A DNA stretch of 64,000 nt. Source: Bilabrum cf. latius. Taxonomy: Eukaryota. The notes below the pieces were generated by a model. That model worked only from the letters and a program-made list of their open reading frames with translations. It did no database searches and was not told the origin of the DNA. The translations under genes were made by a program, and so were the position numbers. This document shows, piece after piece, positions 32,296 through 49,463 of this stretch. The DNA lies in contig OZ237759.1 in assembly GCA_965178125.1 (NCBI GenBank), forward strand, positions 124,001 through 188,000. Reading direction: 5' to 3'. Position 1 is the first letter of the stretch. Every line of letters starts with the position of its first letter.

Positions 32296-33356
32296 GGGGG
32301 GGACAACAGGTGGTGGTAGGTACACCAAGCGTTTAGGACGAGGGCTACGCTACGCTCGCCCCTCCTTTAAAGGCATATTTAGCAACTCAAGTGTTTCCCC
32401 TATAAACCTAAATGATTTCACAGGGGGTTCCCCAAGAACCCCTATAGAACCCCTCTATGTACCCATTTTCAGATATAAAATTTACTCCTACGAAGTAGGG
32501 GTAAATTGAAGAATTCTAATATTTAACCCCCTTATAAACTCTAACAGCAAAGACAGAGATGTTTTAGTAAAGTAGGAAAAAATGAAGAAATTAACCAAGT
32601 GTCCAAAATATCTCTGTGTTTGCTGTAGGAACGGAAGGATGAATTCCCAAGAGACCAAGAGACCAACCGAGGATTTCCCCAAGAGAACAAGGTATTTTAT
32701 CAAGAGACCGAGGTATGTTCCCAAGCGACAAACCGATAAACCGACCGATGAACCGACCGATGAACCGACCAAGGATTTCCCAAGGATTTCCCAAGGATTT
32801 CCCAAGGATTTCCCAAGGATTTCCCAAGGATTTCCCAAGCGACTAAATTGTTCTCCGAAGCAACCAAACCGATTACCCAAGAGATGATACATTATAAGGA
32901 AAACGAAAACGTATTTTAAGTCCCTTTGGAAAAGTCCCCCAAGATGCTCGGGCTTTGCCCTCCGCTCTTTTGATATCTTTTTCAAAGATTAAAATTGAGA
33001 GATTTTACAGGTCAATTTTAAGAGACTTAGAAAGAATAAATATATTTTCCAATTAAAATTAAATGTTGTAATTCCTATGATGCCACCATAAAAATTAAAA
33101 GGAAAACGAAAACGTATTTTAAGTCCCTTTCGAAAAGTCCCCAAAAAACTTGTCAATTTTACAGGTCAATTATAAGAGACTTAGAAAAAATAAATTAAGT
33201 TCCCAAGATGCTCGGGCTTTGCCCTCCGCTCTTTTGATATCTTTTTCAAAGATTAAAATTAAATGTTGTAATTCCTATGATGCCACCATAAAAATTAAAA
33301 GGAAAATAAAAAACAAATTATAATTGTTTTCCAATTAAAAACACAAAAATTGATTG
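32296..33356 (+). repeat. Left terminal inverted repeat (~1.06 kb, modular)
   Basis: Starts GGGGGGGACAACAGGTGGTGGTAGG. Matches the reverse complement of the right end to ~32940 except for 11-mer copy number, then contains duplicated modules up to ACACAAAAATTGATTG. Confidence 0.9.
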
Positions 33357-33372
33357 CCTAAAGTGGAAATGT

Positions 33373-33405
33373 CGTACCTTAAGCATAACTTACGTAGTCT
33401 ATAGT
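33373..33405 (+). promoter_or_regulatory. Extended viral upstream motif, copy 1 (CGTACCTTAAG..CGTAGTCTATAGTA)
   Basis: Near-identical to the motifs upstream of the helicase and pPolB start codons. Confidence 0.7.
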
Positions 33406-33417
33406 ACAACCACATAA

Positions 33418-33657
33418 ATGGCAAAATCACAAAAGGAACTCGAGAATTACATCTTGGCGACCAAAGAATGTCTTAAATCAGTCCCGTTTATTACAACACG
33501 AGAAGCATACGATATGGCCAAAAAGTACCTTGAATTTACAAAGACTATTATTTGGATTAATTATGATGATGACGATGACCTGCTTGCTGACTTTGAGGAA
33601 GCTAAAGATTTAAGTCAAATTGTAGTTGAATGGCACGAAAGTACCAAAACCAAATGA
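33418..33657 (+). CDS. Virophage hypothetical protein (79 aa)
   Basis: ATG preceded by the shared upstream motif; ends at TGA. Confidence 0.7.
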   Translation: MAKSQKELENYILATKECLKSVPFITTREAYDMAKKYLEFTKTIIWINYDDDDDLLADFEEAKDLSQIVVEWHESTKTK

Positions 33658-33722
33658 TTTTTTCCCAAGAATTATTTTCCCTACTTTACAAAAGTAAGGA
33701 GAATGATACAACTATATAGCAA

Positions 33723-34778
33723 ATGAGTAGCGCCTTTGAAAGAATATTACAATCCCTAAACATTTATCCCAACAGTCGTATTGTAAATTTAATGAAACGA
33801 CCAAAACGACCCAAAGGAGTAAATCGACCCCACGTAAATGTACCAGAACCTCACCAAGTGGTACAAATGGATTTATTATCATTACCCCACGACAATAATT
33901 ATAAATACGCATTAACTGCTATTGATTTACATACAAAGTAGGCCGATGCTGAACCGCTCAAAACCAAGCGTTAGAACGAAGTATTAAAGGCATCAAAAAA
34001 GATTTTCAATCGTGGTAATGTCCAGAAACCGCAGCACCGTTTGGAAATAGATAATGGAAAAGAATTTAACGCTTTACAAAGATATTTAGAAGAGACCGAT
34101 GTATTTGTACGAAGAAATAAAGCAGGTCGCCACCGACAACAGGCATTAGTGGAAAACCTAAATAAAACGTTGGGAAAAGCCATATTTACCCTATAGAACG
34201 TTAATGAGTTAAATACAGGTAATGAAAGCGTAGAATGGGTGGATATGCTTCCAAACATCATTGAAAACTATAATGAATATCAACTAGAAAAGTATATAGA
34301 AGAACCACCTTTACCCCCAGAACACTTCGACTTTACGTAGTGTAAAGGAGACGCTTGTAATATATTGGAAGAGGGTACAAGAGTTCGTATACCATTAGAA
34401 GAACCCAGAAAGGCTACAAATTTACAGCAAAAATTATCCGGAAATTTTCGTGCTTCAGATTTACGCTATAATCCAGAAATCAAAACGATAACTAAAGTAT
34501 TATTAAGACCGAGACAACCACCCTTATATGTTGTGGATTAGGATGATTTAGTGGCTTATCCAAAAGAGGAATTACAGATTATCGACTTTGATAATGAGGA
34601 CAATAACCGAGATGCTCAGACAATCTTTCTCCCAAAAAAAATAAAATCCGAGAACGAAACAGAATATCAAATAGAATGGAAAGATTTTCCAGAACCAGAA
34701 CATTGGACGTGGGAACCAAAGAATAAAATCCAAGAAATTGCTCCTAATTTAATTTTGGAGTGGGATATAGAAAATTGA
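33723..34778 (+). CDS. Retroviral-type (rve) integrase with C-terminal chromodomain, 351 aa
   Basis: DDE triad in QMDLL / EIDNGKEF / ALVENLNKTL; chromodomain EYQIEWKDFPEPEHWTWEP; 5 in-frame TAGs; ends at TGA. Confidence 0.92.
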
Positions 34779-34790
34779 GATGCCCCGTAT

Positions 34791-34823
34791 CGTACCTTAA
34801 GGATTATTTTCGTATTCTATAGT
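34791..34823 (+). promoter_or_regulatory. Extended viral upstream motif, copy 2
   Basis: CGTACCTTAAGGATTATTTTCGTATTCTATAGTA ends about 11 nt before the helicase ATG. Confidence 0.7.
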
Positions 34824-34835
34824 ACAACAACAAAA

Positions 34836-36497
34836 ATGTCATTCACTCTGCCGACTAAAGCGTATTCGTCAAAAAGCCTTATGGACCTATGTAATGCCGG
34901 AAAACAAGAGGAATGTATTCAATACCTTAAACAATACTTCTACCGCACCCACGAACAAGGTGGCGGGGTGTATTTTCTAATAGCATCTGAATTAAATCGG
35001 AATAACATAAGTGATGACGAACCCCAGAAACCAGTCTGGTAGTTCCTTACGAATAAAAATATTACTGAAAATTACCTGATTGGGGGACACTGTATTTACG
35101 CGATTGTGGGCAACAAAAGAGTAAAGACTTGGTCAGCACGAGACTGGTTCTTAAATGAGAATACCGACGTATTTACGATTGTAAGAAAATTCAATTCACC
35201 TACCGTTGATTACGACAATCAAACAATTAACGTTATGGGTTCACCTATACTTACACGGGAAAACTGTGGAAACATAGAGGATTTAACCGAAGACGCAAAA
35301 GCAGGCGCGACTATGATTTACGAACATATCCAGAAGGTGTGGACTTCAGAAGACAAAGAATAGTGTGATTTTGTGATGAAGTGGTTGGCTCACGTTATTG
35401 TGGGCGGAAAGAAGTTGGGTACAGCACTATATTTGAAATCTCCACAAGGAACTGGTAAATCGATGATTATTACCTTCCTTATGAGAAAACTACTCGGATA
35501 TACCCTCACACTATAGACGCTTACACACAAGATGCTTCAACCCGACGCCTTCAACTCAATTCTGGACGGGAAACTATTAGTCAATTTTAATGAAATTCCA
35601 AAAGCCTCGCCAACTATTTGGGACGCCATGTAGGCAACACTAAGAAATCTTATTACGGAAAAACACTTTTCCTGTAATGAGAAGTTTGTCAAATCCGAAA
35701 GTCGTCCGAATACATTCAATTTAATTATTGATACGAATGATAGTCCAATCAAAATCACCGAGGAAATCCGTAGATATTGTGTTTTGGATGTGAATACATC
35801 TAAGAAAGGAGACAAAGAATACTTTACAACACTAAAACGTTTTACAGAAAATCCAGAAGTGGCTAAGGCATTTTATATGTTATTGGTTGAAATCTATGAT
35901 ACATCACCAGACTTTACAGGACAATTCGCACCAAAATCAAAGAATTTTTACAAAGGAATTCTTGATGGCGCACATCCGGTTTTAAAAATTCTAAAAGAAG
36001 AGTGGCTGGACGAAGGCAGAGATTTTAAAATGACAGTCTTGGAATTCCGCAATTATCTAAAGCAGGAACTGAACGGTAGAGTGAAGAACCTTGGTACACC
36101 TATGATTAAAACACTATTGTCAGAGGTAGGTGTTCATTCAACGATGAACAAATAGAGAAAACAAGAATTTAATGTGAAACACGCAGACTTACTAAAAGGC
36201 TTCCAATCTAAATTTTAGGCACTTCGTCATTCTGCTGAGATGGAAAAAGCAAAATCCGAGGTAGATGTTCTTCGAGAGTAGATTAGAGAACTACAGAAAC
36301 AAGTCGCATAGCAGTAGGAAACGATTGAATAGTTGGAATTAGAAAAGGAGATTACACCGACGGAACAAGTCCATAAGAAAATCCAGAAACAGCTGAGTGT
36401 TGAGAATAGCATCGCTATTCAAAAATGGATAAAAGAGAACCCACCAAAGAACAAAAAAGGAAAACTTTCCAAATTCCTCTGTAAAATTGAGAAGTGA
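34836..36497 (+). CDS. Superfamily 3 (D5-like) helicase, 553 aa
   Basis: Walker A SPQGTGKS, Walker B-like LLVNFNE, motif C IIDTN, IRRY and a coiled-coil tail; about ten in-frame TAGs; ends at TGA. Confidence 0.9.
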
Positions 36498-36504
36498 GTG
36501 AGTT

Positions 36505-36538: not shown

Positions 36539-36554
36539 TAATAGATACTATAGA

Positions 36555-38396
36555 ATGCCCGAAATCGATTTTACGGAACCCCAAAGAACCAAATTGCGTC
36601 TTAATGGGAAACCAATATGGAGTATGCGATTTGAGAGCGAGGACCTTATCACCGTAAAAAATGTCTTGGAATTTATTCGTGATTACGACGATGGTGGTGA
36701 AAATCCGTTTGATGACTTTAAATTTAAGGTGAATATCAATTACCAAGATACAGGTTGGCGAACACGAAGCACTTGGATTACTACAGATGATTTAGAAAAT
36801 CAAGATAGTTTATGGGCGGGCTACGAAGACGACGATGACGACGAATATAGAAAATTGAATTCTTTTGAACTACTGCTTATTAGAAAGCCAGAACCAGAAG
36901 GCGGTGCTGACGAACATAACGATTGTTTATATAACGCTATAAAACAGGCTTTTCCTTTTTCAGTTGGTCGTAAGGTAAATGTAAAGAGCGCAAAAGGCAA
37001 ATGGAAAACTACTATTAAAAGATTGTCGAAGTCCGACCTCAAAGAACTCTTGAAAATTGGACGTGATGACCCCGTTGATTACAGAAGAATACCAGAGATA
37101 GAAGACGAACTTCAAGTACGCATTCATGTTGTAGGCGACTTTGAATACACATCTGGAAAAACTCATTTTGACCGTCTTCTAACTGTTTCATTAACAAATG
37201 GGCATTACAAGTATGTTCCCCCCATTAGTTAGAAAGAATTATTTACACCGCCGTCTAAAGAACCGTGTACGCTAATTACCCGCTTGTATCAATCCGAGAA
37301 TTCTTATTTACTATTTGATGGAGACCGTGAGTATCAATCAGAAGGCATTACATCAGTTTCCAAGGATAAATTCATCTTTGAAGTCAAGTCCAAGGAAGAA
37401 CTAAGAACAAAACACGAAGAACGGATGAAAAATGTAAGGGCATTAGCGAAGGAGACGGGTGGATATATGGATTTATCACGATTTATGTTTAGAACATCCC
37501 TATTTGTAAAGTCGTATTTCAGTAAGTTTTCCAAACTTTACCCTGCCGACCCGATTGACCAAGTTGAAGCACTATGGATTTCTAAAGCCTCGGGTGGTGG
37601 ATTGAATTGGGCAAACAAGAATACTACATTAAAAAACGCATACCAGTACGATATTAACTCATTTTATCCAAGTATTATGAAGGGTACATTTACATTTCCG
37701 GTTAGAAGGGGTAAGTTCGTAAAATTTGAAGTACCTTCAAGTGGTTTCTATCCGTACGGCATTTTTAGGGTACATATTGAAAATATCAATTCTAAATTGG
37801 TACAAAAAAGAAAAAACAATTATTATACCCAATATGACATTAACCGAGCGATTGAGACGGGCGCTTAGGTGTCTCTGATTGAAGACGGTGAAGCCAACGC
37901 TTTACTTTACGATGAGACAACAAGGGTGAAGGCAAATGGACTGTTCAAAACGATGATTGAGCGATTGTACGGTTATAAAAAATAGGGATTGAAGTGTGCG
38001 AAGGAGATACTAAATAATATTTGGGGTTCTCTATGTTAGAAAAACACAATCACAAAAACACTCCGAGATGGTGATTGTATGAATTTTAGACAATTAAAGA
38101 ACGCGTATCCTAAAGCATCTGGACGACTTGTATCGGGTATACTATATGACGAAGAGTACGATTACAAAACAGCCTACGCAAGAATGGGCCCCTTTCTGAC
38201 TGGACTTGGACGAAGTAAATTGTCCAAAATGATTGAGCCATATCTTGAAAACATTCACTATGTCAACACGGATGGTTTCATTAGTGAGAAAGAATTACCT
38301 CTAAAGTTATCAACGAACCTTGGGGGTATGAAGTTGGAGCAATCAGGTGAATGTCAAATTATTCACAGTAAGAAGAAAATTTTTAGAAAAGATTGA
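36555..38396 (+). CDS. Protein-primed family B DNA polymerase, 613 aa
   Basis: Motif A YDINSFYPS, motif B KEILNNIWG and motif C YVNTDG in one frame through TAGs at 37230, 37866, 37983 and 38037; ends at TGA. Confidence 0.9.
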
Positions 38397-38397
38397 A

Positions 38398-38670
38398 TTA
38401 AATAGTCTGCTTTTCCTTTAGTCTCTAAATTTCCTATCGCAAACTATCAAGTTCATCCATAATATTAATTTGTTCCCTTTTTGTGTCTTCCTCTTTTTGA
38501 AGCCAATCAAGGTGTTTTTTGGTTCTACAATGATGTGATTTATTGTACTTCTTATATACACCACCACAGGAACACTTTATCTATTCTCCAAGTTTTTCCT
38601 TGTTTTTCCGGTAGTATTCACGGGCATACAGCTTATCCTGTTCTTTTCTTTCTGAATGACTGAGTGTCAT
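38398..38670 (-). CDS. Zinc-ribbon/C2H2 protein of the type common in virophages, 90 aa
   Basis: YAREYYRKNKEK..IKCSCGGVYKKYNKSHHCRTKKH; 3 TAGs; ends at TAA. Confidence 0.75.
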
Positions 38671-38711: not shown

Positions 38712-39353
38712 TCATACATTCTACCAAGCAATTTTTAGAGCATCACTTTTCCCATATCCTCTACCTCTTAACTACTGAGCGATTTTCATTGCTAGTTTTG
38801 CTTTTGGGTTTTTCCGACGGCGCCTCCCTTTTCCAGTTTTTTGTGGTTTAAAACTCTACTTCGCTCTTTCGTTCGAGCCCCAATCAGGCACTTCACCACC
38901 CATTCGCATTACTCTAGCCTATCTCGATGATAATAGTTCTTTCTAACTATTTCCCTTCTCTCTAGCATCAAAAAATTCACGCATAGTATCTCTCCGTTCT
39001 GACGCATATTTTCTATGAATTGCCTAATTAAAATCATCAAGTGTTGTGTCGTGTTGCTCGTGTAGTGATGGTGATAAGAATTTTAGTATACCCACGTCAT
39101 AATCACCATCACTATCTTTGTCAATTCCTAGCGTATCAAATTCTTGTTCGGTCTTTTCGGCGAGCATTTCCATCATTTCCCTTTCCTAAGGGTTTACATA
39201 TACACGATTAGCGTACTTTTCCCCTATACTCTAGTGCTTCCTCAATCCTTTCAAAATTGCTAGTGCTTGTCTAGCGTCTTTCCCCAAACTCTGATGTGGC
39301 TAACTAGCCAGTAAATGTAGTTGTTCTTCGGTATAATCATCAACACCCGCCAT
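38712..39353 (-). CDS. Virophage hypothetical protein (acidic N-terminus, basic C-terminus; possible core protein), 213 aa
   Basis: ATG after TATAGTA; the inspected segments are open when TAG is read through; TGA stop in frame. Confidence 0.65.
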
Positions 39354-39373: not shown

Positions 39374-40630
39374 TTAATCATACGCAAACATTTTCCAAGC
39401 CTACTTAAGTGCTGTCTTCTTGGATATTCCTTTTCCTCTTAAAATGGACGCCATTTTCATAACTCTTGAACGTTTTGTTTCACACTGACATTGACCTCCA
39501 AATATTTCCAGATACATACCCGATACTGGGTCATTCGTATGCGAATGGATTTCTTTCATAATTGGTCTTCCAACTGTTTTAGTTGCTAAATCCCAACCTT
39601 CCTTAAAATCTTGTCCAAAATCCCTTTCTGTGTTCTACTTATGCTTTTCCTAATTTTTTCTTAAAGCGTTTCTTACATCTTCCGGTAAATCATCTAAACC
39701 TCTCCCGAACCATTTGGAAAAATACCCAGCCACATCAGTAGCAGCATTAGCCACTCTCTTAGTAAATCCCGATACGTTCTTAGCAATACTCTCTACATCC
39801 TACATAATAAATTGGTTTAAGGGTGGTGTCAAAAACCCATTTGTGCGTAGAACATCCTAAATGAACTTTTGACAATTCAACGAGAAAGCACGATACTAAT
39901 AAAAATTGTATTCTCCTATTTTCTGTAAAGTGGTTTCATATAATTCCCTTACTGTTTTCTAAGGTTTTCCATTAATATTTACTTCCATAGTTTGTGTTTT
40001 CTTGTTGGTGGAAAATCTTGAGGACAAATTAACCCTCTCATTCTTCTCAAGATAAATCTTTTTTCCACCTCCAAGGTTCAACTCTAAGGCTAAGTGAAAA
40101 AAATCATTATATCCGTGTTTATTTTTTAACTTTTTCATTTTTCCAAGGGTAATCCAGTTAAGCAACCGATTAATCGCGCCACTAATGGGGGTTCTAATTA
40201 CTTTCATAGCTATAATTGTTCTATCCCCGTATTGCTGTAGTGTTCTCTGGACTTCGTTTGAATTCCCATACACTACTCCACCCTTAAGCTGTTGCGCCAG
40301 CTAACTGCGCCGAGAGGGGGTGCTTCGCAAACCATCTTTTAAATACTAATGAAGTGTGTTGGATTGTGTGGATTTCTTCTAGGATTTCTTTTTTGGTTTT
40401 CCTTTTGTTCCCACACCATCTTTAAGCTGTTGCGCCAGCTAACTGCGCCGAGAGGGGGTGCTTCGCACACCATCTTCAAACTTAATTGCTTTTTCAAGGG
40501 CTTCTTTAGAATAAGGATGTTCACTTTTCCATGTCCTTGTTGTTTTACTCTTTGGTTCTTTGACACTAATGTACGTCTTAACAAAACCAGAATTCATTTT
40601 TCCGCCACTAAGTGTATAAAAACTATCCAT
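39374..40630 (-). CDS. Virophage protein with a permuted papain-like (PPPDE/LRAT-like) domain, 418 aa
   Basis: FFHLAL..YLEKN..YRAFSLNCQKFI (His before NC); ORF-track fragments 40439-40630 and 39959-40273 share one frame; ends at TAA. Confidence 0.65.
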
Positions 40631-41328: not shown

Positions 41329-43095
41329 TCAAGCTTGGAGCATAGCGAGTAATTGATTGCGAGAGAGAGATTTACCACCTGTTAATCCAGAACCCAACTT
41401 GGCACCTGTTAAGCCCTTGCCTTTCTTGGTAGTTTTTCGGGGTTTCCTTTGGCGTCCCATACCAGCCATTTCACCCACCATTTTAGCGGTGTCAAATACC
41501 TACTTACCATCCTTTAATACTTTTTTGAGATTGCCTTTCTTTACCCAATCAGCGGTTTTGTGTGCGAACTTTTTTAAGGCGTGTCTAATCTTTTTCCCAA
41601 GACCGCGACCGTGTAGTCCTGATAATTGACTTTCATATACTACGGGTAGTTTAGAGGCGGAAAGAACATCTGCCCGTGAGATGACACCCTGCTAATACTC
41701 AATCTTAGAACCATCAATCACATTCATTACTCCTTCGTACAATCCCACAACCACACACTACACATTTTGGTAATCTACAACATCATTATTCTTCACTCGT
41801 AGGGTGATAGACAATTGGTTAGAGCCGTTGCTTCCATTTGTCTAATCTACATCTAGGCTCAAATCCTTGGCGGGGTCGATGGAGAGAATTGCGCCTGATA
41901 GCACCCTATCCCCGAATTTACGCATAGCCCATTCCGCGTATTGCTATTCAAGTCCATTGCTTCTGGATAAGTCCCATAGCTACTGAGGTGAAGCATCTGC
42001 GAGTAATCCACTTTGGTTATTCATCTCAATAGATATTCCCTCAATTCCAAGGAATGTGTTTCCCTAATCTACTGAGACGCTGGTAGGTGAGCGACGGGCA
42101 AACACAAATAGACGAGATGGAACTGAATTGCTAAGTTTAATATTGTTGTTCGTAAGAGTTGCTGTTGTTCCTGCGCTGATTGTTGCACCATAGCTTTGAG
42201 TATATGAAGTCATTTCAAAAATATCATAGGATACCTGTTTTGGAAGGACAAACCCTGTTTTAGGGGTAATCTATTCAAGGTATAAATAGGGGTTCTGGAC
42301 ATCTACCGACTAAACGGTAGCAGTTAAGTCCTATTGTGGAATACGAGACCACACGGTTCTACTCAGTTGCGACCAATTGATATCCAAGGAAAGAGTTTCT
42401 AAACCGAAAATGGCTGGTTGTTCCTATTTACTTTCGTAATGGAAAGGTGGGCAAAGAACCGCCTCAGTACATTCAAAGACAAGAACACGATTTTGCGTTT
42501 GACCTGCGGGCACTGGAGTGTTATCCATTTGAACCAAGTTATAAAATCCACTTCCTCTTGCGGGTTGGTCCTAAAGCACGTCCTCATACGAAGCAAGAGC
42601 GTTATTTGTAGCCTAACTCATCATCGCGTATGAAGGCACATTGTCGCGTCTATACACACTATCAAGGCAATTCACACGATGAACATCATCATCTAAACAA
42701 TGGGACACTACGTCCATTATTTCCGCGTTATTCTAAGTAAAGCGAATGTTATTGATACCAACTGTCTGTGTTGCAATGGAGCGATTAAGTGGATATGAGC
42801 GTGGAGCATCGTAATCTGGTGTAAATGGTACGAGAGCACCTGCGGTTTGATTATTCACGGAAAAGGTAATGGAAAAACGGCAAGACACGTATGCGCGGCG
42901 GCATAAACCTACACCTGAAGGCATACTAATATTCCAATTCACACCTGAATTATAATTACCGGCTGAACCAGATGGAGCGTATCTGCGAAACGTTCGGTTC
43001 TCATAACCTTCTTGAACTTCATAAGGCTTTGGTTGTACGTCTAATGTTGCGGGAGATACTTTGACTGGCTGAAGGGCAAATGTATTCAATGACAT
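41329..43095 (-). CDS. Virophage major capsid protein (double jelly-roll), 588 aa
   Basis: APRSYPLNRSIATQTVGINN, NNALASY..PARG, TEAVLCPPF, VPSRLFVFARR and ISIEMNNQSGLL..LWDLSRSNG resemble virophage MCP motifs; Gly/Lys-rich C-terminal tail; ends at TGA. Confidence 0.9.
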
Positions 43096-43200: not shown

Positions 43201-44310
43201 TCACTTCCGTTTCTTAAATAAAAACTTCACACTCACACTTCCGTGGCGTAAATAAAGAGGTCTTAGATTTGAATAATTGTCTTTCCAATATAGATTAAAC
43301 TAAATCCTATCTACTGAATGTGTATCTAAAAAATCAATTTCGTGGAGAATATGGGGCTGGTATTGAAGAACCTACTAATTAACTGTTTCAGTATCATCTA
43401 ATACACAATCCATATCCACTAATAAACTCTCGGTCCCTGAACCTGAATTTTGAACTGTATTAGTGGATTGTCCATAGGCGGATTTCTAGGATATTGCCTC
43501 ACTCCTCACTGGAAGACTTGAAGATGTGAAAACTATTCCGCGAAAAATCTAAAACTACACTAAACTCCCTCGTTCCTAGGTCATCATTAATCTGTAGTCT
43601 CCCGTTGGGTTTCCCTCGAAGTATGCCTAAGGTTCATATTTTCCAACAGAAGAGCCATCATCAAATAAAACATTCGTTCCTAAGGATTTGAATAGAATGC
43701 TTGCGTATAAGTCGTCATCTTGGATATCCATTCGTTCCATAGGAAAACCCGTCATCAGTTCGTTAAGGGCTTCGTTCAACACTAATTTAAATTTCTGTCC
43801 TGAGTTTTCCTCGTCGTAATCGGGATTTGCTACTAAACTGAACTTTCCATCTTTAAAGAGTAAAACCGGAACTGATGTAATATCCGCTGATAAAGCATTC
43901 TATATGGTTTCGTTGAATAAATCAACAAAATGCTACACGGAATACATATAATAATAAGGAACAAACTACATAGGATTGGAAAATGATGGTTGGTTTTCCC
44001 CTGTTAACTAGGGTCTCCACTGAATGCTTGAGGTCCACAAACTTACTCCGTCTTCATCTGTAATGCTTATTCTATACACCGTTTGATTAGGATTTGAAGA
44101 TGGATTTTTCACTTTATCGGTTTCTATGTGTGGAACCCATAAAGGTATTGAATTGGTGCTTATGGAAAACCGGAATACTGACATCGTATAATCACCAACA
44201 TCCTTATCTAATAATGGCTACTTGCGGGTTTCGCTATAGGTCGCTGGTTGGAAAGTATCTTCGTTATTTCGTATGTTTGCGGTAATGTAAAATCGGTCTG
44301 GAGAACTCAT
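43201..44310 (-). CDS. Virophage minor capsid protein (penton), 369 aa
   Basis: N-terminal FYITANI..ATYSETRK(TAG)PLL..DYTMSVFRFSI..IPLW and C-terminal SVKFLFKKRK; directly upstream of the MCP gene. Confidence 0.85.
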
Positions 44311-44366: not shown

Positions 44367-44858
44367 TTAAGATGGTGTAATAAGTGAACCTGACACTAAG
44401 GATTTCCAACTAGATGTAGAAGAACTGCCAATCGCCACATAGACATCGTTGTCGCTTCCATTATACACTAAAGCGCCCTTGAACTTTCGCTCTGCTGACG
44501 TATTAATAGGGGTAGAAGCGTCAGCCAATGTAGCTCCAGCAACCTCACTCAGCCCAACAACACCCTCTTGAGAAGTCTTGAATGAACCAACTAGTGAAAT
44601 ATCGCATCTTTCTCCTTCTTCGCTCATACTGAACTGACAACCAGCAGACGCTCCGTTTTTTCCAAACCGTAGAACAGTTTCACCCCACTCCATATAAGGC
44701 TCTCCGTCTTTGAATTCAATACTTGGATTGCCTATGACTGCTCCCGTAGAGTTAGTAATTGCGGACACTTTAATTGCGTCGCTACTCACAACATTACACG
44801 TAATAGTTTGAGACATAAGGTCTAGACTGTTCTTAGATAGAAGATTTGAAACTGACAT
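44367..44858 (-). CDS. Putative fibre/spike-like virion protein, 163 aa
   Basis: Uninterrupted ORF next to the penton gene; N-terminal MSVSNLLSKNSLDL and Ser/Gly-rich beta-like composition. Function is inferred. Confidence 0.5.
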   Translation of the reverse strand: MSVSNLLSKNSLDLMSQTITCNVVSSDAIKVSAITNSTGAVIGNPSIEFKDGEPYMEWGETVLRFGKNGASAGCQFSMSEEGERCDISLVGSFKTSQEGVVGLSEVAGATLADASTPINTSAERKFKGALVYNGSDNDVYVAIGSSSTSSWKSLVSGSLITPS

Positions 44859-44923: not shown

Positions 44924-46105
44924 TCAATCTTTTCCTAAAAGATGTAATAGTTCCATAGCAACCTAATGATGAATATCTTTATCGGCTCCTTTTACTTTCT
45001 TGGCTACATTCATTGCTGTATCATAGATAATCCTTTTTCCACCTCGTAATCCTTTCCCCTTTTTTGGTTTTCCACTTTCTTCTACAGTCATTGCGCGTGA
45101 TGGTGGGTCTTCTAAATCAGGCTACTAAATTCCATAGGGCGGACTAAACCCCGTAAATCGCTACACAGGTCTAGTAGCACGTTTTCCAATTCCCTGCTCA
45201 ATTTCTATCCTACTCGGCATATCATAGTACTCACCAGTTTCTGGGTCCCATGCCCCCGGAGTGCTTCCTTGCGGTAGTGGTCTTTCATTGCTCGCTGCGG
45301 CTAATATGGCATCTAAGTCTTTTGATGTTTTTGACGCATTACTACTTGAACCCTCTTGAAAATGCTAAAACATATTTGTCTGCCCCTGTGATGTTCTTTG
45401 TGAGAAATTCTTTCCCTATTCTAAATCCCACGCTATTCGTTGTTTTTCAGTTAAGGGTCTGTCTTGTTGTATTCTTTCTCTGGCTCTTTCCAATAACTAT
45501 TTATACGCACCCGAAGACCTTTTTGGAAGCTGTACTTGTGTTGGAGCGGAAAACGTGTTTCTTCTTGTTGTTCGAGCAGGTGTTTGTAAAGATGTTGGCT
45601 ACTAATCAATTCCCAACATTCCCTACGGTATTCGTTGTCCGGATGCCTCCTATATAACTTTCCCTAATTCTAAGAGTTGTTTTCTGTCTTCAGCTGGAAC
45701 TCTCTGCAGTCCTTCGTAGCCTTTCCTTTGAAATCTCTCAATATTTACGTATTGACGGGCTAGTTGTTGCTTCATTTGTGGAGACATATTGATATTACCA
45801 ACAAAATCCTTCAATGCTTTCACTGCTGGACTTACATTTTTACCCTCAATAATACCTTTCATTATACCAGATATTGACTTAGATATGATTTCCTCGTTGC
45901 TTTGGTCTGCCTATTTTCTCTACGCTGGAGTTCCATACCTTCCACTTTCTTTTAATCGTTCAATTTTTGCCCTTTTCCTTATAAAATCACTATATTCTGT
46001 TTCTAAATCTACGTCGTCCCTTGCCTGTAAATCTAACATTTTAGCATTGTCCAGTTCCCTTTCTAGGGCTTGCTGAATAAGAGCATTCACTTTAGCAGTT
46101 TTCAT
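44924..46105 (-). CDS. Virophage hypothetical protein (low complexity, candidate core protein), 393 aa
   Basis: Manually translated; open throughout when TAG is read through; contains GKGLRGGKR; ends at TGA. Confidence 0.7.
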
Positions 46106-46168
46106 TTACTATAAGCTTTTATAAAAAGCTTGACCAAAAAATAAAAAAAAGTGTTTGTGTATAGTATA

Positions 46169-46408
46169 ATGGATATTGATAAGTGGATTATATAGAGAAC
46201 CAAACAACTCGCGCTATAGAAAGAACAAGACGCTTTAAATAGAGTTAAAAACAAACATATTAAAGTTGGAAAAGGCCGTAGTAAGCCTAAGCGGAAAGTG
46301 AGCGCCAAAATGAAACGCCGCAATAAACTTGTAAAAATGGTGATGTAGTAGACTGGTATGAGTTTACCTCAAGCAAGTCGGTATATACGAGAATAGAATA
46401 TTATTTAA
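46169..46408 (+). CDS. Small basic protein, candidate DNA-condensing core protein, 79 aa
   Basis: GKGRSKPKRKVSAKMKRRNKLVKMVM(TAG)(TAG)TGMSLPQASRYIRE; 5 TAGs; TATAGTA upstream; ends at TAA; absent from the ORF track. Confidence 0.75.
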
Positions 46409-46437
46409 AGAAACTTTTATAACAAGTTTGACCAAAA

Positions 46438-47340
46438 TTACATAAGGTAAGCCTACTTTTCTCCTAATAAATACCTCGGGTAATTCCTGTGGACACATAC
46501 CCACCTAGAAGGCATTTTTAAGACTTTAGAGATTTCTTGTTTCTCAAGTCCTATATAATTTTTTAGTAAATACCTTAGAGAATGTGCGGAAGAACACTAA
46601 GGGAATATAACGAACTTATGACTTTCCGCAAGAATAATTCGGGTACTTTTATAGTTGGTAGATAAATGACTTGTGATTAATACAGAAGTATTCGAATGTC
46701 TTCCAACCTACAATATTTCATCCTGTAAATGATTGAGGGCTTCCCTTAACTTCTTATCTTTGATTGTATCAATATCATCCAAGATTACTAAGGCGTCCCT
46801 TAATTCCTAATGAATATCAATCGGGTTCTCCACCAGTTCCTCATTTAAAATAATCCTTTTCAGTCCTTTCACTTCATCTAAGACTTTATCCTACTATACT
46901 CGTGAAAATAAAATAATTCTCCTGTTTGGAAACATTCTGTGATAATTCTTAGCATATTTGGAAACCCAAGTAGACTTCCCAGCACCTGATGGTGCGGTGA
47001 TATAAATGACCTCTCTTCCTTTTGGATTTGGTAATGATTGGAATTCACCCTATTTTAATGTAATCTCTTTATGTTTCTTTTCCTATGCTTTTTCATACAA
47101 GTATTTGATGTCTTCGTCTAGGGGTTCGACCTGTTTGATTAAGTGTCGTGCTAATAAATCCATTTTCCTCTGCGGAAATCGTTTCCCTGTAAGTGATGAT
47201 ACTTGAAAATCCTAAAATGACATACTATCATCTCCAAATTGGTTGTCTGTGTTTTCCGCCGTGTATAAAATACGTTTTCCGTGAGTGTCATATGCGATGG
47301 GTGTTGATTTTGTAGTTTCCTTCCAAGAAAAATGAGCCAT
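46438..47340 (-). CDS. FtsK/HerA (A32-like) genome packaging ATPase, 300 aa
   Basis: Walker A YITAPSGAGKST, Walker B LVILDD and EIL(TAG)VGRH..LITSH; ends at TAA. Confidence 0.92.
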
Positions 47341-47529
47341 TTTAGTGTATTTACTATATGTTTTTATTTTTTCTAAAGTGTTTTGTCTTTTTGTTGAAAA
47401 CTTATTTTGAATGATTGTCTTTTATGCTATCCACAAATTCCAAAACGGATTTTGTAGAAATACTTCTACGCTTAAATAGTGGTTAAGAGAATTCATCTCC
47501 CCCAATATATGTTTCTATAATAAATATAT

Positions 47530-48066
47530 ATGGATTATGCTCTTAGCGATAGTGATATTCGTGTTCTCCTCCAAACTCCACCAAATATTAAGGGGTTTCT
47601 TCCTACGTCGGTAAACATCGTTCCATATACAGAATTAGGATAGTACAATAGTATTGATGGATTATTTAGTCGTTGTAATTGTTGTATCATTCTATACCAA
47701 GAAGAAATAAATTCTGGACACTGGGTGTGCTTATTTAAGCGTAATAAAACAATATACTTCTTTGACAGTTATGGAATTCGTCCTGATAGGCAATAGCACA
47801 CAATGAGTGAAAGCGTGCGGAAACGTTTTTATGAAGACCCTGAGTTAATATATTTAATGTATCATTCTCCGTATAAGATTGACTATAACCCATATTAGTT
47901 TTAGGCGGATGGAATGGATATAGCAACCTGCGGGAGACATTGTATAGTTCGTCTTTGGAATAGGGGAAAAAACGCTGATTAGTATAAAAAGTGGGTGGAT
48001 AAGGTTTGTAAGAAACATACATTAAATCCTGATGAATTAGTGTATTTATTGACGTGTCATTTATGA
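47530..48066 (+). CDS. Adenain/Ulp1-like cysteine maturation protease, 178 aa
   Basis: GHWVC (His), FFDSYG (Asp) and F(TAG)ADGMDIATCGRHC (Gln, Cys); 5 TAGs; ends at TGA; absent from the ORF track. Confidence 0.92.
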
Positions 48067-48345
48067 ACTCCAAAGGTAAAAATGTGAGAAGAACTTTGGG
48101 GTTCTTGGTTTTACTTCGATACCGTGTCGTTTGAAGTATCTAAATTGGCGGTCCGTATCTAAATGATTTAAATGGCTGTAATACCCTATTCTATCGTAAA
48201 ATTGCTAATACCGCCTATCACCAAACGATGTAATATATTCATCATTTTCGTCAAAAACATCATACTTCTTATTCTTGCGTCTTGAGGGTGCTTTAAATAG
48301 AAAATTCTCAACAACCTTTTCAAAATCGTAGGTATGTAGCTTCAT
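48061..48345 (-). CDS. Conserved small virophage/polinton protein (Tlr6F/DUF5754-like), 94 aa
   Basis: RKNKKYDV..SFGDRRY..YFKRH..TPKFFSHFYLW; its stop overlaps the protease 3' end by 6 nt (TTATGA). Confidence 0.6.
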
Positions 48346-48376
48346 AAGTACTTTATAGTATAGTCTTCTACTTATA

Positions 48377-48490
48377 TCAAAGCCCGAGCTTCTTGTATTC
48401 CTTTAGTTTTTCGTGTAATTTTTTCCAAATACGTGGATTAATTTGCTTGACAATATGCTCTATCATCAACTCCTTTAAAAATGGGTTCAT
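48377..48490 (-). CDS. Very small virophage ORF (37 aa)
   Basis: ATG directly after CTATAGTAA; MNPFLKELMIEHIVKQINPRIWKKLHEKLKEYKKLGL. Confidence 0.4.
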   Translation of the reverse strand: MNPFLKELMIEHIVKQINPRIWKKLHEKLKEYKKLGL

Positions 48491-48638
48491 TTACTATAGT
48501 GATATAGAATGGTCTTAATTATCATCTCTTGGGAAATCCAATCTTTGAAAAAGATATCAAAAGAGCGGAGGGCAAAGCCCGAGCATCTTGGAAAATTAAT
48601 TTTAATATTTCTTTGTATCCTATATTGTCAAAATTTTT

Positions 48639-49463
48639 CAATCAATTTTTGTGTTTTTAATTGGAAAACAATTATAATTTGTTTTTTATTTTCCTTTTAA
48701 TTTTTATGGTGGCATCATAGGAATTACAACATTTAATTTTAATCTTTGAAAAAGATATCAAAAGAGCGGAGGGCAAAGCCCGAGCATCTTGGGAACTTAA
48801 TTTATTTTTTCTAAGTCTCTTATAATTGACCTGTAAAATCTCTCAATTTTTGGGGGACTTTTCCAAAGGGACTTAAAATACGTTTTCGTTTTCCTTATAA
48901 TGTATCATCTCTTGGGTAATCGGTTTGGTTGCTTCGGAGAACAATTTAGTCGCTTGGGAAATCCTTGGGAAATCCTTGGGAAATCCTTGGTCGGTTCATC
49001 GGTCGGTTCATCGGTCGGTTTATCGGTTTGTCGCTTGGGAACATACCTCGGTCTCTTGATAAAATACCTTGTTCTCTTGGGGAAATCCTCGGTTGGTCTC
49101 TTGGTCTCTTGGGAATTCATCCTTCCGTTCCTACAGCAAACACAGAGATATTTTGGACACTTGGTTAATTTCTTCATTTTTTCCTACTTTACTAAAACAT
49201 CTCTGTCTTTGCTGTTAGAGTTTATAAGGGGGTTAAATATTAGAATTCTTCAATTTACCCCTACTTCGTAGGAGTAAATTTTATATCTGAAAATGGGTAC
49301 ATAGAGGGGTTCTATAGGGGTTCTTGGGGAACCCCCTGTGAAATCATTTAGGTTTATAGGGGAAACACTTGAGTTGCTAAATATGCCTTTAAAGGAGGGG
49401 CGAGCGTAGCGTAGCCCTCGTCCTAAACGCTTGGTGTACCTACCACCACCTGTTGTCCCCCCC
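48639..49463 (-). repeat. Right terminal inverted repeat (~0.83 kb; an extra module copy lies at ~48539-48590)
   Basis: Reverse complement of the left end; terminates CCTACCACCACCTGTTGTCCCCCCC. Confidence 0.9.

What the first reader, a model, noticed from the sequence alone, without database searches (positions are those of the whole stretch)
32296..49463. Hidden, apparently intact endogenous virophage written in a non-standard genetic code (UAG=Gln)
Seen: a 17.2-kb AT-rich island with TIRs and a 5-bp TSD that yields only fragments in the standard code. With TAG read through it resolves into about 17 tightly packed ORFs ending in TAA or TGA, and I found no frameshifts in the segments translated. 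Known: MCP, penton, A32-like ATPase and adenain-like protease are the four virophage core genes, and rve integrase, SF3 helicase and pPolB form the mavirus-type module. Integrated mavirus protects Cafeteria populations from the giant virus CroV. Inference: this is a potentially reactivatable provirophage adapted to a recoded host. I do not know of a described virophage using UAG=Gln, and standard pipelines would miss it or call it decayed.
Basis: partly seen in the sequence, partly recalled or inferred. Interest (0 to 1): 0.97.

Follow-up and report, generated by a model that had tools for sequence, protein, structure and literature searches.

The report
Integrated virophage reading TAG as glutamine
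A complete virophage (a small virus that parasitises giant viruses) sits integrated in a protist chromosome and, like its host, reads the stop codon TAG as glutamine, so ordinary gene finders would see only fragments.

Summary
Window 32296-49463 is a 17.2-kb AT-rich island (GC 0.37; flanks 0.63/0.64) with about 1-kb terminal inverted repeats (outer 512 nt identical) and a 5-bp CCATG target-site duplication. Read with TAG=Gln it gives 16 packed ORFs with no internal TAA/TGA. They include virophage major capsid protein, penton, FtsK/HerA packaging ATPase, adenain-like protease, rve integrase with chromodomain, D5-type helicase and protein-primed polymerase.

TAG=Gln is shown by TAG/CAG/CAA swaps at homologous codons in metagenomic relatives, which are recoded too. 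Host genes in the flanks also carry in-frame TAGs inside conserved domains, so the code is the host's. The element carries no tRNA.

A TATAGTA-type motif precedes 12 of 16 genes. Contigs of public runs suggest several copies at different sites.

Polinton-like endogenous viruses using a host's variant code are already published for Streblomastix, so the principle is not new. A true virophage, and a clade of them, in a UAG-only code was in no paper my seven full-text searches returned. Giant-virus dependence and reactivation are inferred, not shown.

The parts
32291..32295 (.). Left copy of the 5-bp target-site duplication, CCATG
32296..33356 (.). Left terminal inverted repeat, about 1,061 nt. 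The outer part is GC-richer. It holds an 11-nt tandem repeat (32758-32845) and direct repeats about 200 nt apart.
   Evidence: I1, I3, I2; D1, D6-D9.
33372..33423 (+). Long upstream motif TCGTACCTTAAG..CGTA.TCTATAGTAC. It is repeated before the helicase (34790-34841) and pPolB (36504-36555) and is a candidate promoter of the replication module.
   Evidence: D3: 3 copies, 85% and 67% identical to the reference copy.
33418..33657 (+). orf79a, a small acidic protein of unknown function that overlaps the integrase start by 28 nt in another frame
33630..34778 (+). rve (DDE) integrase with C-terminal chromodomain, 382 aa, 6 TAG
   Evidence: Pfam rve 1.7e-9 and Chromo 6.7e-6. 245 homologues; most of the 120 listed are 340-390 aa with the same two domains.
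34836..36497 (+). D5/VapE-type (DUF5906) superfamily-3 helicase, 553 aa, 10 TAG
   Evidence: Pfam DUF5906 3.3e-15. PHROG 'DNA primase' 4.1e-19. 56% identical to the L004 homologue. Walker A GTGKS.
36555..38396 (+). Protein-primed family-B DNA polymerase, 613 aa, 4 TAG
   Evidence: Pfam DNA_pol_B_2 1.3e-5, which is 24.7 bits and just under the 25.8 cut-off. tblastn to phi29-group polymerases 2e-4. 61% identical to the L004 homologue. Motifs DINSFYP, KEILNNIWG and YVNTD are present (the motif definitions are recalled).
38398..38670 (-). orf90, small Cys/His-containing protein, conserved in relatives
38712..39353 (-). orf213, unknown, 9 TAG, basic C-terminus
   Evidence: no family.
39374..40630 (-). 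orf418, unknown accessory protein, 11 TAG, conserved in relatives at 44%
40656..41273 (-). orf205, small P-loop protein (GSGKT), 8 TAG, conserved in relatives at 54%
41329..43095 (-). Virophage major capsid protein, 588 aa, 14 TAG
   Evidence: Pfam Sputnik_MCP_1st 1.9e-22 and MCP_V20_C 2.2e-27. PDB Sputnik V20 5.4e-29 and mavirus MCP 1.6e-8. Relatives at 90%, 61%, 43% and 47% identity by BLASTP in the search listing.
43201..44310 (-). Penton (minor capsid) protein, 369 aa, 13 TAG
   Evidence: Pfam V18-19 9.9e-11. PDB Sputnik minor virion protein 1.7e-13.
44367..44858 (-). orf163, Ser/Gly-rich protein, no TAG, unknown function
44924..46105 (-). orf393, unknown, 13 TAG; the N-terminal 156 aa are conserved in relatives
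46169..46408 (+). orf79b, small basic protein, 5 TAG
46438..47340 (-). FtsK/HerA (A32-like) packaging ATPase, 300 aa, 9 TAG
   Evidence: Model with pLDDT 58.6. BFVD best hits are Sputnik V3 at 37% identity (1.7e-18), a Yellowstone Lake virophage 5 packaging ATPase, the mavirus FtsK-HerA ATPase (1.6e-9) and A32-like ATPases. Walker B LVILDD.
47530..48066 (+). Adenain/Ulp1-like cysteine protease, 178 aa, 5 TAG
   Evidence: H64, D79, Q125 and C134 are invariant in 4 of 4 aligned sequences. Model with pLDDT 60.8. BFVD best hit is Sputnik V9 at 35% identity (2e-10), then adintovirus adenain and Ulp1-like proteases.
48061..48345 (-). orf94, DUF5754 protein
   Evidence: Pfam DUF5754 3e-6.
48639..49463 (.). 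Right terminal inverted repeat, about 825 nt; shorter than the left arm because of repeat copy number
49464..49468 (.). Right copy of the target-site duplication, CCATG

Best explanation
This is an intact, recently mobile provirophage: a 17.2-kb dsDNA virus of the virophage class, integrated by its own DDE (rve) integrase into an intergenic stretch of a GC-rich flagellated protist.

Its genes are written in the host's nuclear code, in which UAG means glutamine and UAA/UGA remain stops. 41% of its Gln codons are TAG, and it carries no tRNA of its own. It can therefore be translated only in a cell that decodes UAG.

Shown:
- anatomy (TIRs, TSD)
- full-length core and replication genes
- the meaning of TAG
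- TAG used as a sense codon in host genes
- a short promoter-like motif before most genes, shared with relatives
- a clade of equally recoded relatives in metagenomes
- signs of several copies at different sites

Inferred by analogy with mavirus/EMALEs and Sputnik: the genes are silent until a giant virus whose transcription machinery recognises the TATAGTA-type promoters infects the cell. The genome is then copied from its TIR ends by the protein-primed polymerase and packaged by the FtsK/HerA ATPase into an MCP/penton capsid matured by the cysteine protease. New particles reintegrate through the integrase, with the chromodomain possibly steering it to chromatin.

The helper giant virus must itself be compatible with UAG=Gln.
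For: Anatomy and composition.

Core genes:
- MCP and penton by Pfam and by PDB sequence search.
- Protease by invariant H/D/Q/C residues and by fold.
- ATPase by fold.
- Integrase, helicase and pPolB.

Intactness: 16 of 16 ORFs have no internal TAA/TGA. 11 of 16 match the relative L004 at 44-65% identity, 8 of them over most or all of their length and 3 (orf90, orf393, orf79b) only in part. The outer 512 nt of the TIRs are identical.

TAG=Gln:
- At the 14 TAG codons of the MCP, homologues P0001-P0004 have Gln in 27 of 52 non-gap cells, including two columns invariant in all five sequences.
- Against metagenomic relatives L002-L004, 18 alignment columns hold a TAG on either side. 7 are TAG/CAG or TAG/CAA swaps, 2 are shared TAG and 9 are other residues.

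Recoded relatives: L002-L007 (6 of the 7 close loci) carry 2-6 in-frame TAGs in the MCP. The gene ends in TGA in the 4 of these loci that reach its end; L005 and L007 stop at the contig end.

Host code:
- 40 in-frame TAGs occur in 8 of the 9 long host ORFs.
- Pfam domain matches run across TAGs in ALG9, the pseudouridine synthase and the REI1-type zinc finger.
- The GH3 TAG at codon 369 lies inside a gap-free alignment to solved xylosidases, which continues for 55 residues after it.
- Yeast REI1 has Gln at the zinc-finger TAG.
- One of 8 perfect 42-nt repeats in the kinesin gene has TAG where the others have AAG, with more than 500 open codons downstream.

No tRNA or other RNA family in the window, and no tRNA in relatives L001-L004.

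Promoter motif TATA[GC]TA: 26 copies in 15,282 nt, against 5.4 +/- 2.3 in 200 Markov shuffles (maximum 14). 12 of the 26 lie on the gene's strand within 39 nt upstream of an ATG, which is 2% of strand-positions. 12 of 16 genes have one. The same motif precedes at least 8 of the 11 homologous genes of L004 (HEL, POLB, orf393, orf79b, ATP, PEN, MCP, orf205), read by eye from the printed upstream stretches.

Copies:
- Contigs of runs from 3 studies (X5, X1, X7) run from host flank into the TIR end at one or both junctions.
- Summed contig depth over the element is about 12 times (X5) and about 10 times (X1) that over the flanks.
- The TIR end joins at least 3 unlike flanks in X1, and other flanks in X7.
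- Variants at part depth are shared by X1 and X5.
Against: - No expression data: no listed run is on record as RNA. Silence, inducibility and dependence on a giant virus are all untested.
- The junction contigs enter the TIR by only 28-29 nt, under the 31 nt that the tool asks for before a record counts as bridging. No record spans the whole element.
- Depth of summed contigs is not a copy number, by the tool's own warning.
- The protease and ATPase models are of low confidence (pLDDT 60.8 and 58.6). Sequence searches of PDB gave only spurious or no hits for them.
- The pPolB Pfam score is just under the curated cut-off.
- Host evidence on which residue TAG encodes is thin and mixed. The aligned residue is Lys in the GH3 homologue, Lys codons in the sister kinesin repeats, Ala in human ZNF622 and Gln in yeast REI1. 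The Gln assignment rests mainly on the viral genes.
- The host genome was not available, so no tRNA-Gln(CUA) or altered release factor could be sought.
- Five ORFs (orf79a, orf213, orf163, orf94 and, through lack of data, INT) have no counterpart in the relatives held, so their integrity is judged from open frames alone, or for INT from database homologues.
Confidence: 0.82

Rival explanations
1. An autonomous Polinton-like virus or self-synthesising transposon that needs no giant virus. It moves and perhaps forms particles on its own, using host nuclear transcription.
For: It has the Polinton hallmark set: pPolB, rve integrase, TIRs, 5-bp TSD, adenain-like protease and FtsK/HerA ATPase. No giant virus was seen anywhere in the window. 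Several copies at different sites are what a transposon would give.
Against: MCP and penton are of the virophage type, with Sputnik and mavirus as the only solved relatives, and not of the Polinton type. Nearly every gene has its own short AT-rich motif a few bases before the ATG. That is the arrangement described for virophages that borrow giant-virus transcription (PMC8547959, passages), and it is unlike nuclear promoters of a host with GC of about 0.63.
Confidence: 0.12
2. A dead fossil: an integrated virophage that looks whole but no longer works.
For: Function was not tested, no RNA holder is listed, and 5 ORFs lack relatives for comparison.
Against: 0 internal TAA/TGA in 16 ORFs and 92.7% coding density. 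Catalytic motifs are intact. The outer 512 nt of the TIRs are 100% identical and the TSD is perfect. There are signs of several copies at different sites.
Confidence: 0.08
3. The recoding is virus-specific, as in TAG-recoded phages. The host would use the standard code, and a helper virus or the element would supply a suppressor tRNA.
For: TAG is far commoner in the element (111 of 272 Gln codons, 41%) than in the host ORFs (40 of 476, 8%).
Against: Host genes need TAG read through inside conserved domains. Neither the element nor its relatives carry a tRNA. The difference in TAG share fits the difference in GC content (0.37 against 0.63).
Confidence: 0.03
4. An assembly artefact: a free virophage or contaminant contig wrongly joined to host DNA.
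For: No single record spans the element, and the junction contigs overlap the TIR by only 28-29 nt.
Against: A perfect 5-bp duplication flanks perfect TIR ends. The same host-TIR junction sequences occur in runs of three studies. Element and host share the same rare code.
Confidence: 0.02

Closest known systems
Mavirus and the endogenous mavirus-like elements (EMALEs) of Cafeteria burkhardae (PMC8547959, passages read; PMC10945749, search listing and abstract start only)
   Same: An AT-rich island in a GC-rich flagellate genome, with TIRs, a short TSD (mavirus 5-6 bp, EMALEs mostly 3-5 bp), rve integrase, pPolB, the four morphogenesis genes, type-specific short promoter motifs, and many copies per genome with strain-specific sites.
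   Different: Mavirus and the EMALEs are described with the standard code: the EMALE paper has no occurrence of 'genetic code', and the Cafeteria genome paper mentions only the mitochondrial UGA=Trp. Here 41% of Gln codons are TAG. The MCP, protease and ATPase are nearer Sputnik than mavirus. The main motif is TATAGTA and not plain TCTA, although 4 genes have TCTATAG. The host is not close to Cafeteria: no Cafeteria hit is among the 120 IFT122 homologues listed.
Sputnik virophage (PDB 3j26; BFVD entries V3 and V9)
   Same: It is the closest solved or modelled relative of the MCP (E 5.4e-29), penton (1.7e-13), protease (V9, 35% identity) and ATPase (V3, 37% identity).
   Different: From my own recall, not tested here: Sputnik has a tyrosine-type integrase and a primase-helicase, has no rve integrase or pPolB, infects an amoeba system and uses the standard code.
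Endogenous Polinton-like/PLV elements of Streblomastix strix that use the host's TAA/TAG=Gln code (Bellas et al. 2023, PMC10120064, passages read)
   Same: An integrated small DNA virus that shares the variant nuclear code of its protist host, read there as a sign of long association.
   Different: Those elements belong to a 'Metamonada' MCP group of the Maverick-Polinton/PLV kind, not to virophages, and both TAA and TAG are reassigned (table 6). Here it is a Sputnik/mavirus-type MCP and only TAG is reassigned. That paper's supplementary tables could not be opened, so I cannot exclude that a virophage-type MCP in a recoded host is listed there.
Metagenomic virophage with an ochre-suppressor tRNA (Paez-Espino et al. 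2019, PMC6905037, passages read)
   Same: The only hint of stop-codon reassignment in a virophage context that the searches found.
   Different: That is one tRNA with anticodon TTA in one clade, offered as a possible sign of host recoding. No recoded genes were shown, it concerns UAA and not UAG, and the genomes were not integrated. The element here has no tRNA.
Giant-virus MAGs best annotated with variant codes (GVMAGs V2, PMC13524828, and GVClass, PMC11721457; passages read)
   Same: Large DNA viruses of eukaryotes whose genes make sense only under stop-codon reassignment, code 15 being among those tested. They are the expected kind of helper for this element.
   Different: They are giant viruses, not virophages, and their hosts are unknown. 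'Virophage' occurs 0 times in either paper.
TAG=Gln ('code 15') recoded phages such as Lak and crAss-like phages (recalled, and named in earlier scan notes)
   Same: The same codon has the same new meaning, and standard gene callers fragment the genes.
   Different: As I recall it, in those phages the code differs from the host's, is often limited to late genes and is often served by a phage tRNA. Here the host shares the code, there is no tRNA, and a bias between gene modules was not reproducible.

Membership tests
Virophages (Sputnik/mavirus class) | Virophage-type double jelly-roll major capsid protein | tested here: met
   Pfam Sputnik_MCP_1st 1.9e-22 and MCP_V20_C 2.2e-27. PDB Sputnik V20 5.4e-29 and mavirus MCP 1.6e-8.
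Virophages (Sputnik/mavirus class) | Penton (minor capsid) protein | tested here: met
   Pfam V18-19 9.9e-11. PDB 3j26_N 1.7e-13. Only the N-terminal 140-180 residues align.
Virophages (Sputnik/mavirus class) | FtsK/HerA (A32-like) packaging ATPase | tested here: met
   BFVD fold hits: Sputnik V3 1.7e-18, YSLV5 packaging ATPase 2.4e-17, mavirus FtsK-HerA 1.6e-9. The model pLDDT is only 58.6. Pfam gave only generic AAA hits below cut-off.
Virophages (Sputnik/mavirus class) | Adenain/Ulp1-like cysteine protease | tested here: met
   H64, D79, Q125 and C134 invariant in 4 of 4 sequences. BFVD hits: Sputnik V9 2e-10 and adintovirus adenain 9.2e-5. The model pLDDT is only 60.8. There was no Pfam, PHROG or PDB sequence hit.
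Virophages (Sputnik/mavirus class) | Replication depends on a co-infecting giant virus | not testable with these tools
   The only evidence is indirect: a short conserved motif directly upstream of 12 of 16 genes.
Mavirus-type provirophage / EMALE | rve integrase and protein-primed polymerase | tested here: met
   rve 1.7e-9 with Chromo 6.7e-6. pPolB by Pfam at 24.7 bits (cut-off 25.8), by phi29-group tblastn hits and by motifs.
Mavirus-type provirophage / EMALE | Integrated with TIRs and a short TSD | tested here: met
   TIRs of about 1 kb and a 5-bp CCATG TSD. The literature values were read.
Mavirus-type provirophage / EMALE | Capsid genes nearest to mavirus | tested here: not met
   Sputnik is the better match for the MCP (5.4e-29 against 1.6e-8), the protease and the ATPase. 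No tree with named references could be built.
Mavirus-type provirophage / EMALE | CroV-type late promoter TCTA flanked by AT | tested here: inconclusive
   TCTATAG occurs before 4 genes, but the shared core is TATA[GC]TA.
Nuclear code with UAG=Gln only (NCBI table 15 pattern) | TAG is a sense codon | tested here: met
   Element. Host.
Nuclear code with UAG=Gln only (NCBI table 15 pattern) | TAG encodes glutamine | tested here: met
   27 of 52 aligned cells are Gln. There are 7 TAG/CAR swaps and 2 shared TAGs in 18 columns. Yeast REI1 has Gln at a host TAG. Host-only evidence is weak.
Nuclear code with UAG=Gln only (NCBI table 15 pattern) | TAA and TGA remain stops | tested here: met
   Reading TAA or TGA as sense hardly lengthens the element's ORFs. 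The MCP (TGA) and the ATPase (TAA) end where their homologues end. This was not tested genome-wide in the host.
Nuclear code with UAG=Gln only (NCBI table 15 pattern) | A host tRNA-Gln with anticodon CUA and an adapted release factor | not testable with these tools
   No genome is held for this window, and there is no tRNA in the 64 kb.

The most novel reading that the evidence does not exclude
The element is the visible third of a complete host / giant virus / virophage system that runs entirely in a UAG=Gln code. That would imply three things. First, this sequenced, apparently culturable flagellate of an unplaced lineage is a natural host for the 'orphan' TAG-recoded giant viruses now turning up in metagenomes. 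Second, the virophage's heavy use of TAG (41% of Gln codons) acts as a code lock that confines it and its helper to recoded hosts. Third, the TATAGTA-type promoter can be used as a probe to find the helper virus.
Probability: 0.5. Interest if true: 0.8.

Novelty: new variant of a known kind. Interest (0 to 1): 0.66.

Why it matters
Integrated virophages are the best-studied candidate for an inducible, heritable defence of protists against giant viruses, but they are known in detail from one host (Cafeteria) and only in the standard code.

This element shows that the same lifestyle exists in a host with a rare UAG-only reassignment, and that a whole environmental clade of virophages is written in that code. 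Three practical points follow:
1. Surveys that call genes with the standard code will score such elements as decayed, or miss them.
2. A shared variant code is a strong and cheap host-virus link. It ties this virophage clade, and by implication a giant virus, to hosts that read UAG as Gln.
3. The recent giant-virus catalogue states that all isolated giant viruses come from standard-code hosts (PMC13524828, passage). A sequenced host with resident virophages therefore gives a concrete place to look for a recoded giant virus.

Tried and rejected
- **Own genome:** none is held for this window, so there was no genome-wide code inference, tRNA search or copy census.
- **Scan notes:** nothing on this genome or on sequences like the MCP.
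- **'phages' collection:** no match to the MCP, so that collection gave no named virophage for a tree. The pPolB hit only phi29-group phages.
- **IMG/VR:** the single MCP found nothing. The alignment found one distant standard-code virophage, L001. The search patterns contain Gln, which would be missed where Gln is written TAG.
- **Protease against PDB by sequence:** only spurious WD40-repeat hits, with single protein and with profile.
- **ATPase profile against PDB:** nothing useful.
- **PHROGs:** no family for orf213, orf418, orf205, orf163, orf393 or the protease.
- **Host taxon:** the protein atlas gave only generic IFT families. The best non-self IFT122 hit is 45% identical and unnamed, and named hits of about 40% are scattered over eukaryotes. 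The host is left unplaced.
- **Expression:** no RNA holder is listed.
- **X8:** same study as X1, but only four pieces of 18-23 nt were laid and it holds neither element nor flanks, so it says nothing about an empty site.
- **X7:** covers the flanks and the outer part of the TIR (about 500 nt laid on the right arm) but not the interior, and its kind is uncertain, so no conclusion on silence or absence.
- **Early/late bias in TAG use:** 26% of Gln codons in the replication module against 46% in the rest (p = 0.0025), but 22% against 22% (p = 1.0) in relative L004. Not reproducible, so dropped.
- **orf79a/integrase overlap:** suspected as a hidden frameshift. Rejected, because integrase homologues are no longer than this ORF.
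- **Papers that looked promising but were not relevant:** the Phaeocystales paper concerns the plastid code, the Antarctic virome paper concerns Crassvirales, the cryptophyte PLV paper only ran Codetta, and the Cafeteria genome paper concerns the mitochondrial code.
- **orf418:** the idea that it has an LRAT/NlpC-like H...NC domain comes from recall.
- **Literature claim:** 'no virophage in a UAG=Gln code in print' rests on searches of the held library only.

Full report
**1. The observation**

The window is GC-rich (0.50-0.73 per kb) except for one block. From 33001 to 49000 every 1-kb bin has GC 0.32-0.42. Overall GC is 0.374 for 32296-49463, against 0.628 and 0.641 for the flanks.

The block is bounded by inverted repeats. 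The outer 512 nt are 100% complementary (32295-32806 and 48953-49464), and further inverted segments of 97-100% carry the repeat to 33356 and 48639. Directly outside the repeat ends stands CCATG on both sides (32291-32295 and 49464-49468).

Under the standard code the block holds 6 stop-to-stop frames of at least 150 aa (1,118 aa in all). With TAG as sense it holds 17 (5,365 aa). Making TAA or TGA sense gives only 10 each (2,013 and 1,834 aa).

With TAG=Gln and ATG starts there are 16 ORFs of 79-613 aa. None has an internal TAA or TGA. Ten end in TGA and six in TAA, and they cover 92.7% of the DNA between the TIRs.

**2. What the genes are**

Pfam recognises:
- both domains of the Sputnik-type major capsid protein (1.9e-22 and 2.2e-27)
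- the Sputnik V18/19 penton (9.9e-11)
- an rve integrase core (1.7e-9) with a chromodomain (6.7e-6)
- a DUF5906/VapE-type helicase (3.3e-15)
- just under its cut-off, the organellar/viral family-B polymerase (24.7 against 25.8 bits)

Against solved structures the MCP matches Sputnik V20 (5.4e-29) and, more weakly, the mavirus MCP (1.6e-8). The penton matches the Sputnik minor virion protein (1.7e-13). The polymerase finds phi29-group protein-primed polymerases (2e-4) and has the three polymerase motifs (the motif definitions are recalled).

The two remaining core genes gave nothing by sequence against Pfam, PHROGs or PDB.
- The 178-aa ORF has His64, Asp79, Gln125 and Cys134 invariant in all 4 aligned sequences, including a distant standard-code virophage. 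Its model (pLDDT 60.8) finds Sputnik V9 (35% identity, 2e-10), an adintovirus adenain and Ulp1-like proteases.
- The 300-aa P-loop ORF (model pLDDT 58.6) finds Sputnik V3 (37% identity, 1.7e-18), a Yellowstone Lake virophage packaging ATPase, the mavirus FtsK-HerA ATPase and A32-like ATPases.

All four virophage core genes are thus present, and each is nearer to Sputnik than to mavirus. The integration and replication genes are of the mavirus/Polinton kind.

Seven further ORFs have no assigned function. One has a P-loop, one is DUF5754, and four are conserved in relatives.

**3. Intactness**

11 of the 16 ORFs have counterparts in a 13.8-kb metagenomic relative (L004) at 44-65% identity. Eight match over most or all of their length; orf90, orf393 and orf79b match only in part.

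The integrase overlaps a small upstream ORF in another frame, which made me suspect a frameshift. However, 245 database homologues were found, and most of the 120 listed are 340-390 aa with the same rve+chromo architecture, so the 382-aa ORF is whole. The identical TIR ends and perfect TSD also speak for a recent insertion.

The reconstructed empty site lies in a locally GC-poorer stretch (0.46-0.56) and breaks no long ORF. No other copy or fragment lies in the window's flanks.

**4. The meaning of TAG**

The element uses TAG 111 times in frame, beside 115 CAA and 46 CAG. At the 14 TAG positions of the MCP, four database homologues have Gln in 27 of 52 non-gap cells. Two of those columns are invariant Gln in all five sequences, and no other residue exceeds 4 cells.

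The metagenomic relatives L002-L004 (64% identical MCP in my own MAFFT alignment) were read at the DNA level. Of the 18 columns with TAG on either side:
- 7 are TAG against CAG or CAA
- 2 are TAG in both
- 9 are other residues

TAA and TGA remain stops. The MCP ends in TGA, and the ATPase in TAA, where their homologues end.

**5. Whose code it is**

Neither ARAGORN nor Rfam finds any RNA gene in the 64 kb, and relatives L001-L004 have no tRNA.

The flanks encode ordinary eukaryotic genes on both strands: IFT122, a kinesin, a hybrid histidine kinase, ALG9, a GH3 hydrolase, an RsuA-type pseudouridine synthase and a REI1-type zinc-finger protein.

Eight of the nine long host frames contain in-frame TAGs, 40 in all, beside 51 CAA and 385 CAG. 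The longest frame in the left flank grows from 585 to 1,678 codons when TAG is read.

TAGs lie inside Pfam domain matches in ALG9 (3 TAGs), the pseudouridine synthase (1) and the zinc finger (1). The GH3 TAG at codon 369 lies in a gap-free stretch aligned to solved xylosidases, and the alignment runs on for 55 residues after it. In the kinesin, one of eight otherwise identical 42-nt repeats has TAG where seven have AAG, with more than 500 open codons after it.

Which residue the host inserts is less clear from host genes alone. The aligned residue is Lys in the GH3 homologue, Lys codons in the kinesin repeats, Ala in human ZNF622 and Gln in yeast REI1. Since virus and host share one translation apparatus, the viral evidence for Gln should apply to both.

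The code is therefore the host's, and the element's higher TAG share (41% against 8% of Gln codons) fits its low GC.

I could not place the host. Its IFT122 is at most 45% identical to anything but itself, and named hits of about 40% are scattered across eukaryotes.

**6. Relatives**

Seven metagenomic loci (L002-L008) encode MCPs 55-62% identical by best tblastn segment. Six of them (L002-L007) have 2-6 in-frame TAGs in the MCP; the seventh, L008, covers only 157 codons and has none. The gene ends in TGA in the 4 loci that reach its end (L002, L003, L004, L006).

So this is a recoded lineage, not a single oddity. The protein collection also holds an MCP 90% identical (P0001, on a 19.5-kb contig) and an integrase 100% identical (P0131, on a 13-kb contig). 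One IMG/VR virophage (L001, 25% identical MCP, GC 0.29) uses the standard code.

**7. Regulation**

The heptamer TATA[GC]TA occurs 26 times in the 15,282 nt between the TIRs, against 5.4 +/- 2.3 in 200 Markov shuffles (maximum 14). 12 of the 26 copies lie on the gene's strand within 39 nt upstream of an ATG, a space that makes up 2% of strand-positions. 12 of 16 genes have one.

Three of the remaining four genes (pPolB, MCP, protease) have close variants such as TCTATAATA. The integrase has none and may be read from the orf79a promoter. The same motif stands before at least 8 of the 11 homologous genes of L004, read by eye from the printed upstream stretches.

The three replication-side promoters share a longer 52-nt motif (D3).

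In EMALEs and mavirus such motifs match the late promoter of the helper giant virus (PMC8547959, passages). By analogy I read the motif as the handle by which a giant virus switches the element on. That is inference.

**8. Public runs**

Six runs from two studies, under two coded organism labels, hold 0.74-0.91 of the sampled words of 40200-50100. All the material laid is contigs.
- In X5 one contig covers 31000-32324 and another covers 49436-50500.
- X1 has the right-hand junction contig.
- X7 has short contigs over both junctions.

They enter the TIR by only 28-29 nt, which is the limit of unitigs at a repeat and is below the tool's 31-nt rule for bridging.

Summed contig depth is about 49 on the flank and about 600 on the element in X5, and 2-4 against about 30 in X1. 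The TIR end is joined to at least three unlike sequences in X1 and to others in X7. Variants at part depth and three internal deletion joints are shared by X1 and X5.

Together these point to several slightly different copies at different sites, as in Cafeteria. Contig depth is not a copy number, and free viral DNA cannot be excluded.

**9. Comparison with what is known**

The closest system in lifestyle is mavirus/EMALE. The closest in capsid genes is Sputnik.

The principle that an endogenous small DNA virus shares the variant code of its host is published for Polinton-like elements of Streblomastix strix, where TAA and TAG mean Gln (PMC10120064, passages).

A possible link between virophages and recoded hosts was raised once, from an ochre-suppressor tRNA in a metagenomic clade (PMC6905037, passages).

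Giant-virus MAGs that annotate best with variant codes are catalogued, with hosts unknown and no mention of virophages (PMC13524828 and PMC11721457, passages). Two unchecked earlier notes of this scan describe soil giant viruses with TAG=Gln.

Seven full-text searches found no paper describing a virophage, integrated or free, written in a UAG=Gln code.

**10. Verdict**

I file the element as a virophage and as a provirophage of mavirus-like lifestyle. It is not a member of the mavirus lineage proper, because its capsid module is Sputnik-like.

It is a new variant of a known kind. The mechanism expected is the known one, but the code, the existence of a recoded clade, and the unplaced host that reads UAG as Gln are new as far as the searches reach. 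Its main value is as a pointer to a three-partner system in a variant code and as a warning for standard-code surveys.

I put the interest at 0.66.

Noticed in passing
window 1-32295 and 49469-64000: The host itself appears to use a UAG-only reassignment: 40 in-frame TAGs in 8 of 9 long ORFs, several inside conserved domains. It has no close named relative; its IFT122 is at most 45% identical to anything else. A GC-rich flagellate with this code may be of interest in its own right.
   Followed up: partly
window 16569-16904 (+): There are eight perfect 42-nt tandem repeats (LSEARGTIE[SC]QD[KQ]Q) in the coiled-coil tail of the host kinesin gene. One unit carries TAG in place of AAG.
   Followed up: partly
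window 32296-33356 and 48639-49463: The TIRs are internally repetitive, with an 11-nt tandem repeat (CCAAGGATTTC, about 6 copies at 32758-32845) and direct repeats about 200 nt apart. The left arm is about 236 nt longer than the right. TIR depth in run X5 is about 3 times that of the interior, not 2 times, as if solo TIRs or other elements share these ends.
   Followed up: no
window 38712-39353 (-) and 39374-40630 (-): orf213 and orf418 end in a similar basic tail followed by ...ALK(I/Q)AW.... The MCP, orf393 and orf79b also have basic C-terminal stretches. These might be protease-processing or DNA-binding tails. Not tested.
   Followed up: no
window 39374-40630 (-): The central part of orf418 has FHLALEL ... 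SLNCQKF, which reminded me of the H-box/NC pair of LRAT/NlpC-type enzymes. This is recall only.
   Followed up: no
window 36555-37550 (+): The first 330 or so residues of the pPolB ORF match no family (the Pfam match starts at residue 342) but are conserved in the L004 homologue. Their function is unknown.
   Followed up: no
window 40342-40654, 45055-45604, 48743-48791: Contigs of runs X1 and X5 show variant copies that skip 311, 548 and 47 nt at these places, at part of the depth. They lie in orf418, in orf393 and in the inner TIR.
   Followed up: no
run X7 on window 31182-32324 and 48961-50500: A third coded organism label holds the host flanks, both junctions and the outer part of the TIR (about 500 nt laid on the right arm), but none of the interior at 92% likeness. 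It also has TIR ends joined to other flanks. Possible reasons: a different element with the same ends, a small data set, or an RNA library.
   Followed up: no
window 33418-38396 versus 38398-48345: The TAG share of Gln codons is 26% in the replication-side genes and 46% in the rest (p = 0.0025), but the relative L004 shows no such difference (22% against 22%).
   Followed up: yes
proteins P0001, P0002, P0131: The protein collection lists these relatives with Gln where this element has TAG, and at nearly full length. Its gene caller must therefore have read TAG through on those contigs, or they are written with CAA/CAG. The contigs' DNA could not be fetched.
   Followed up: no
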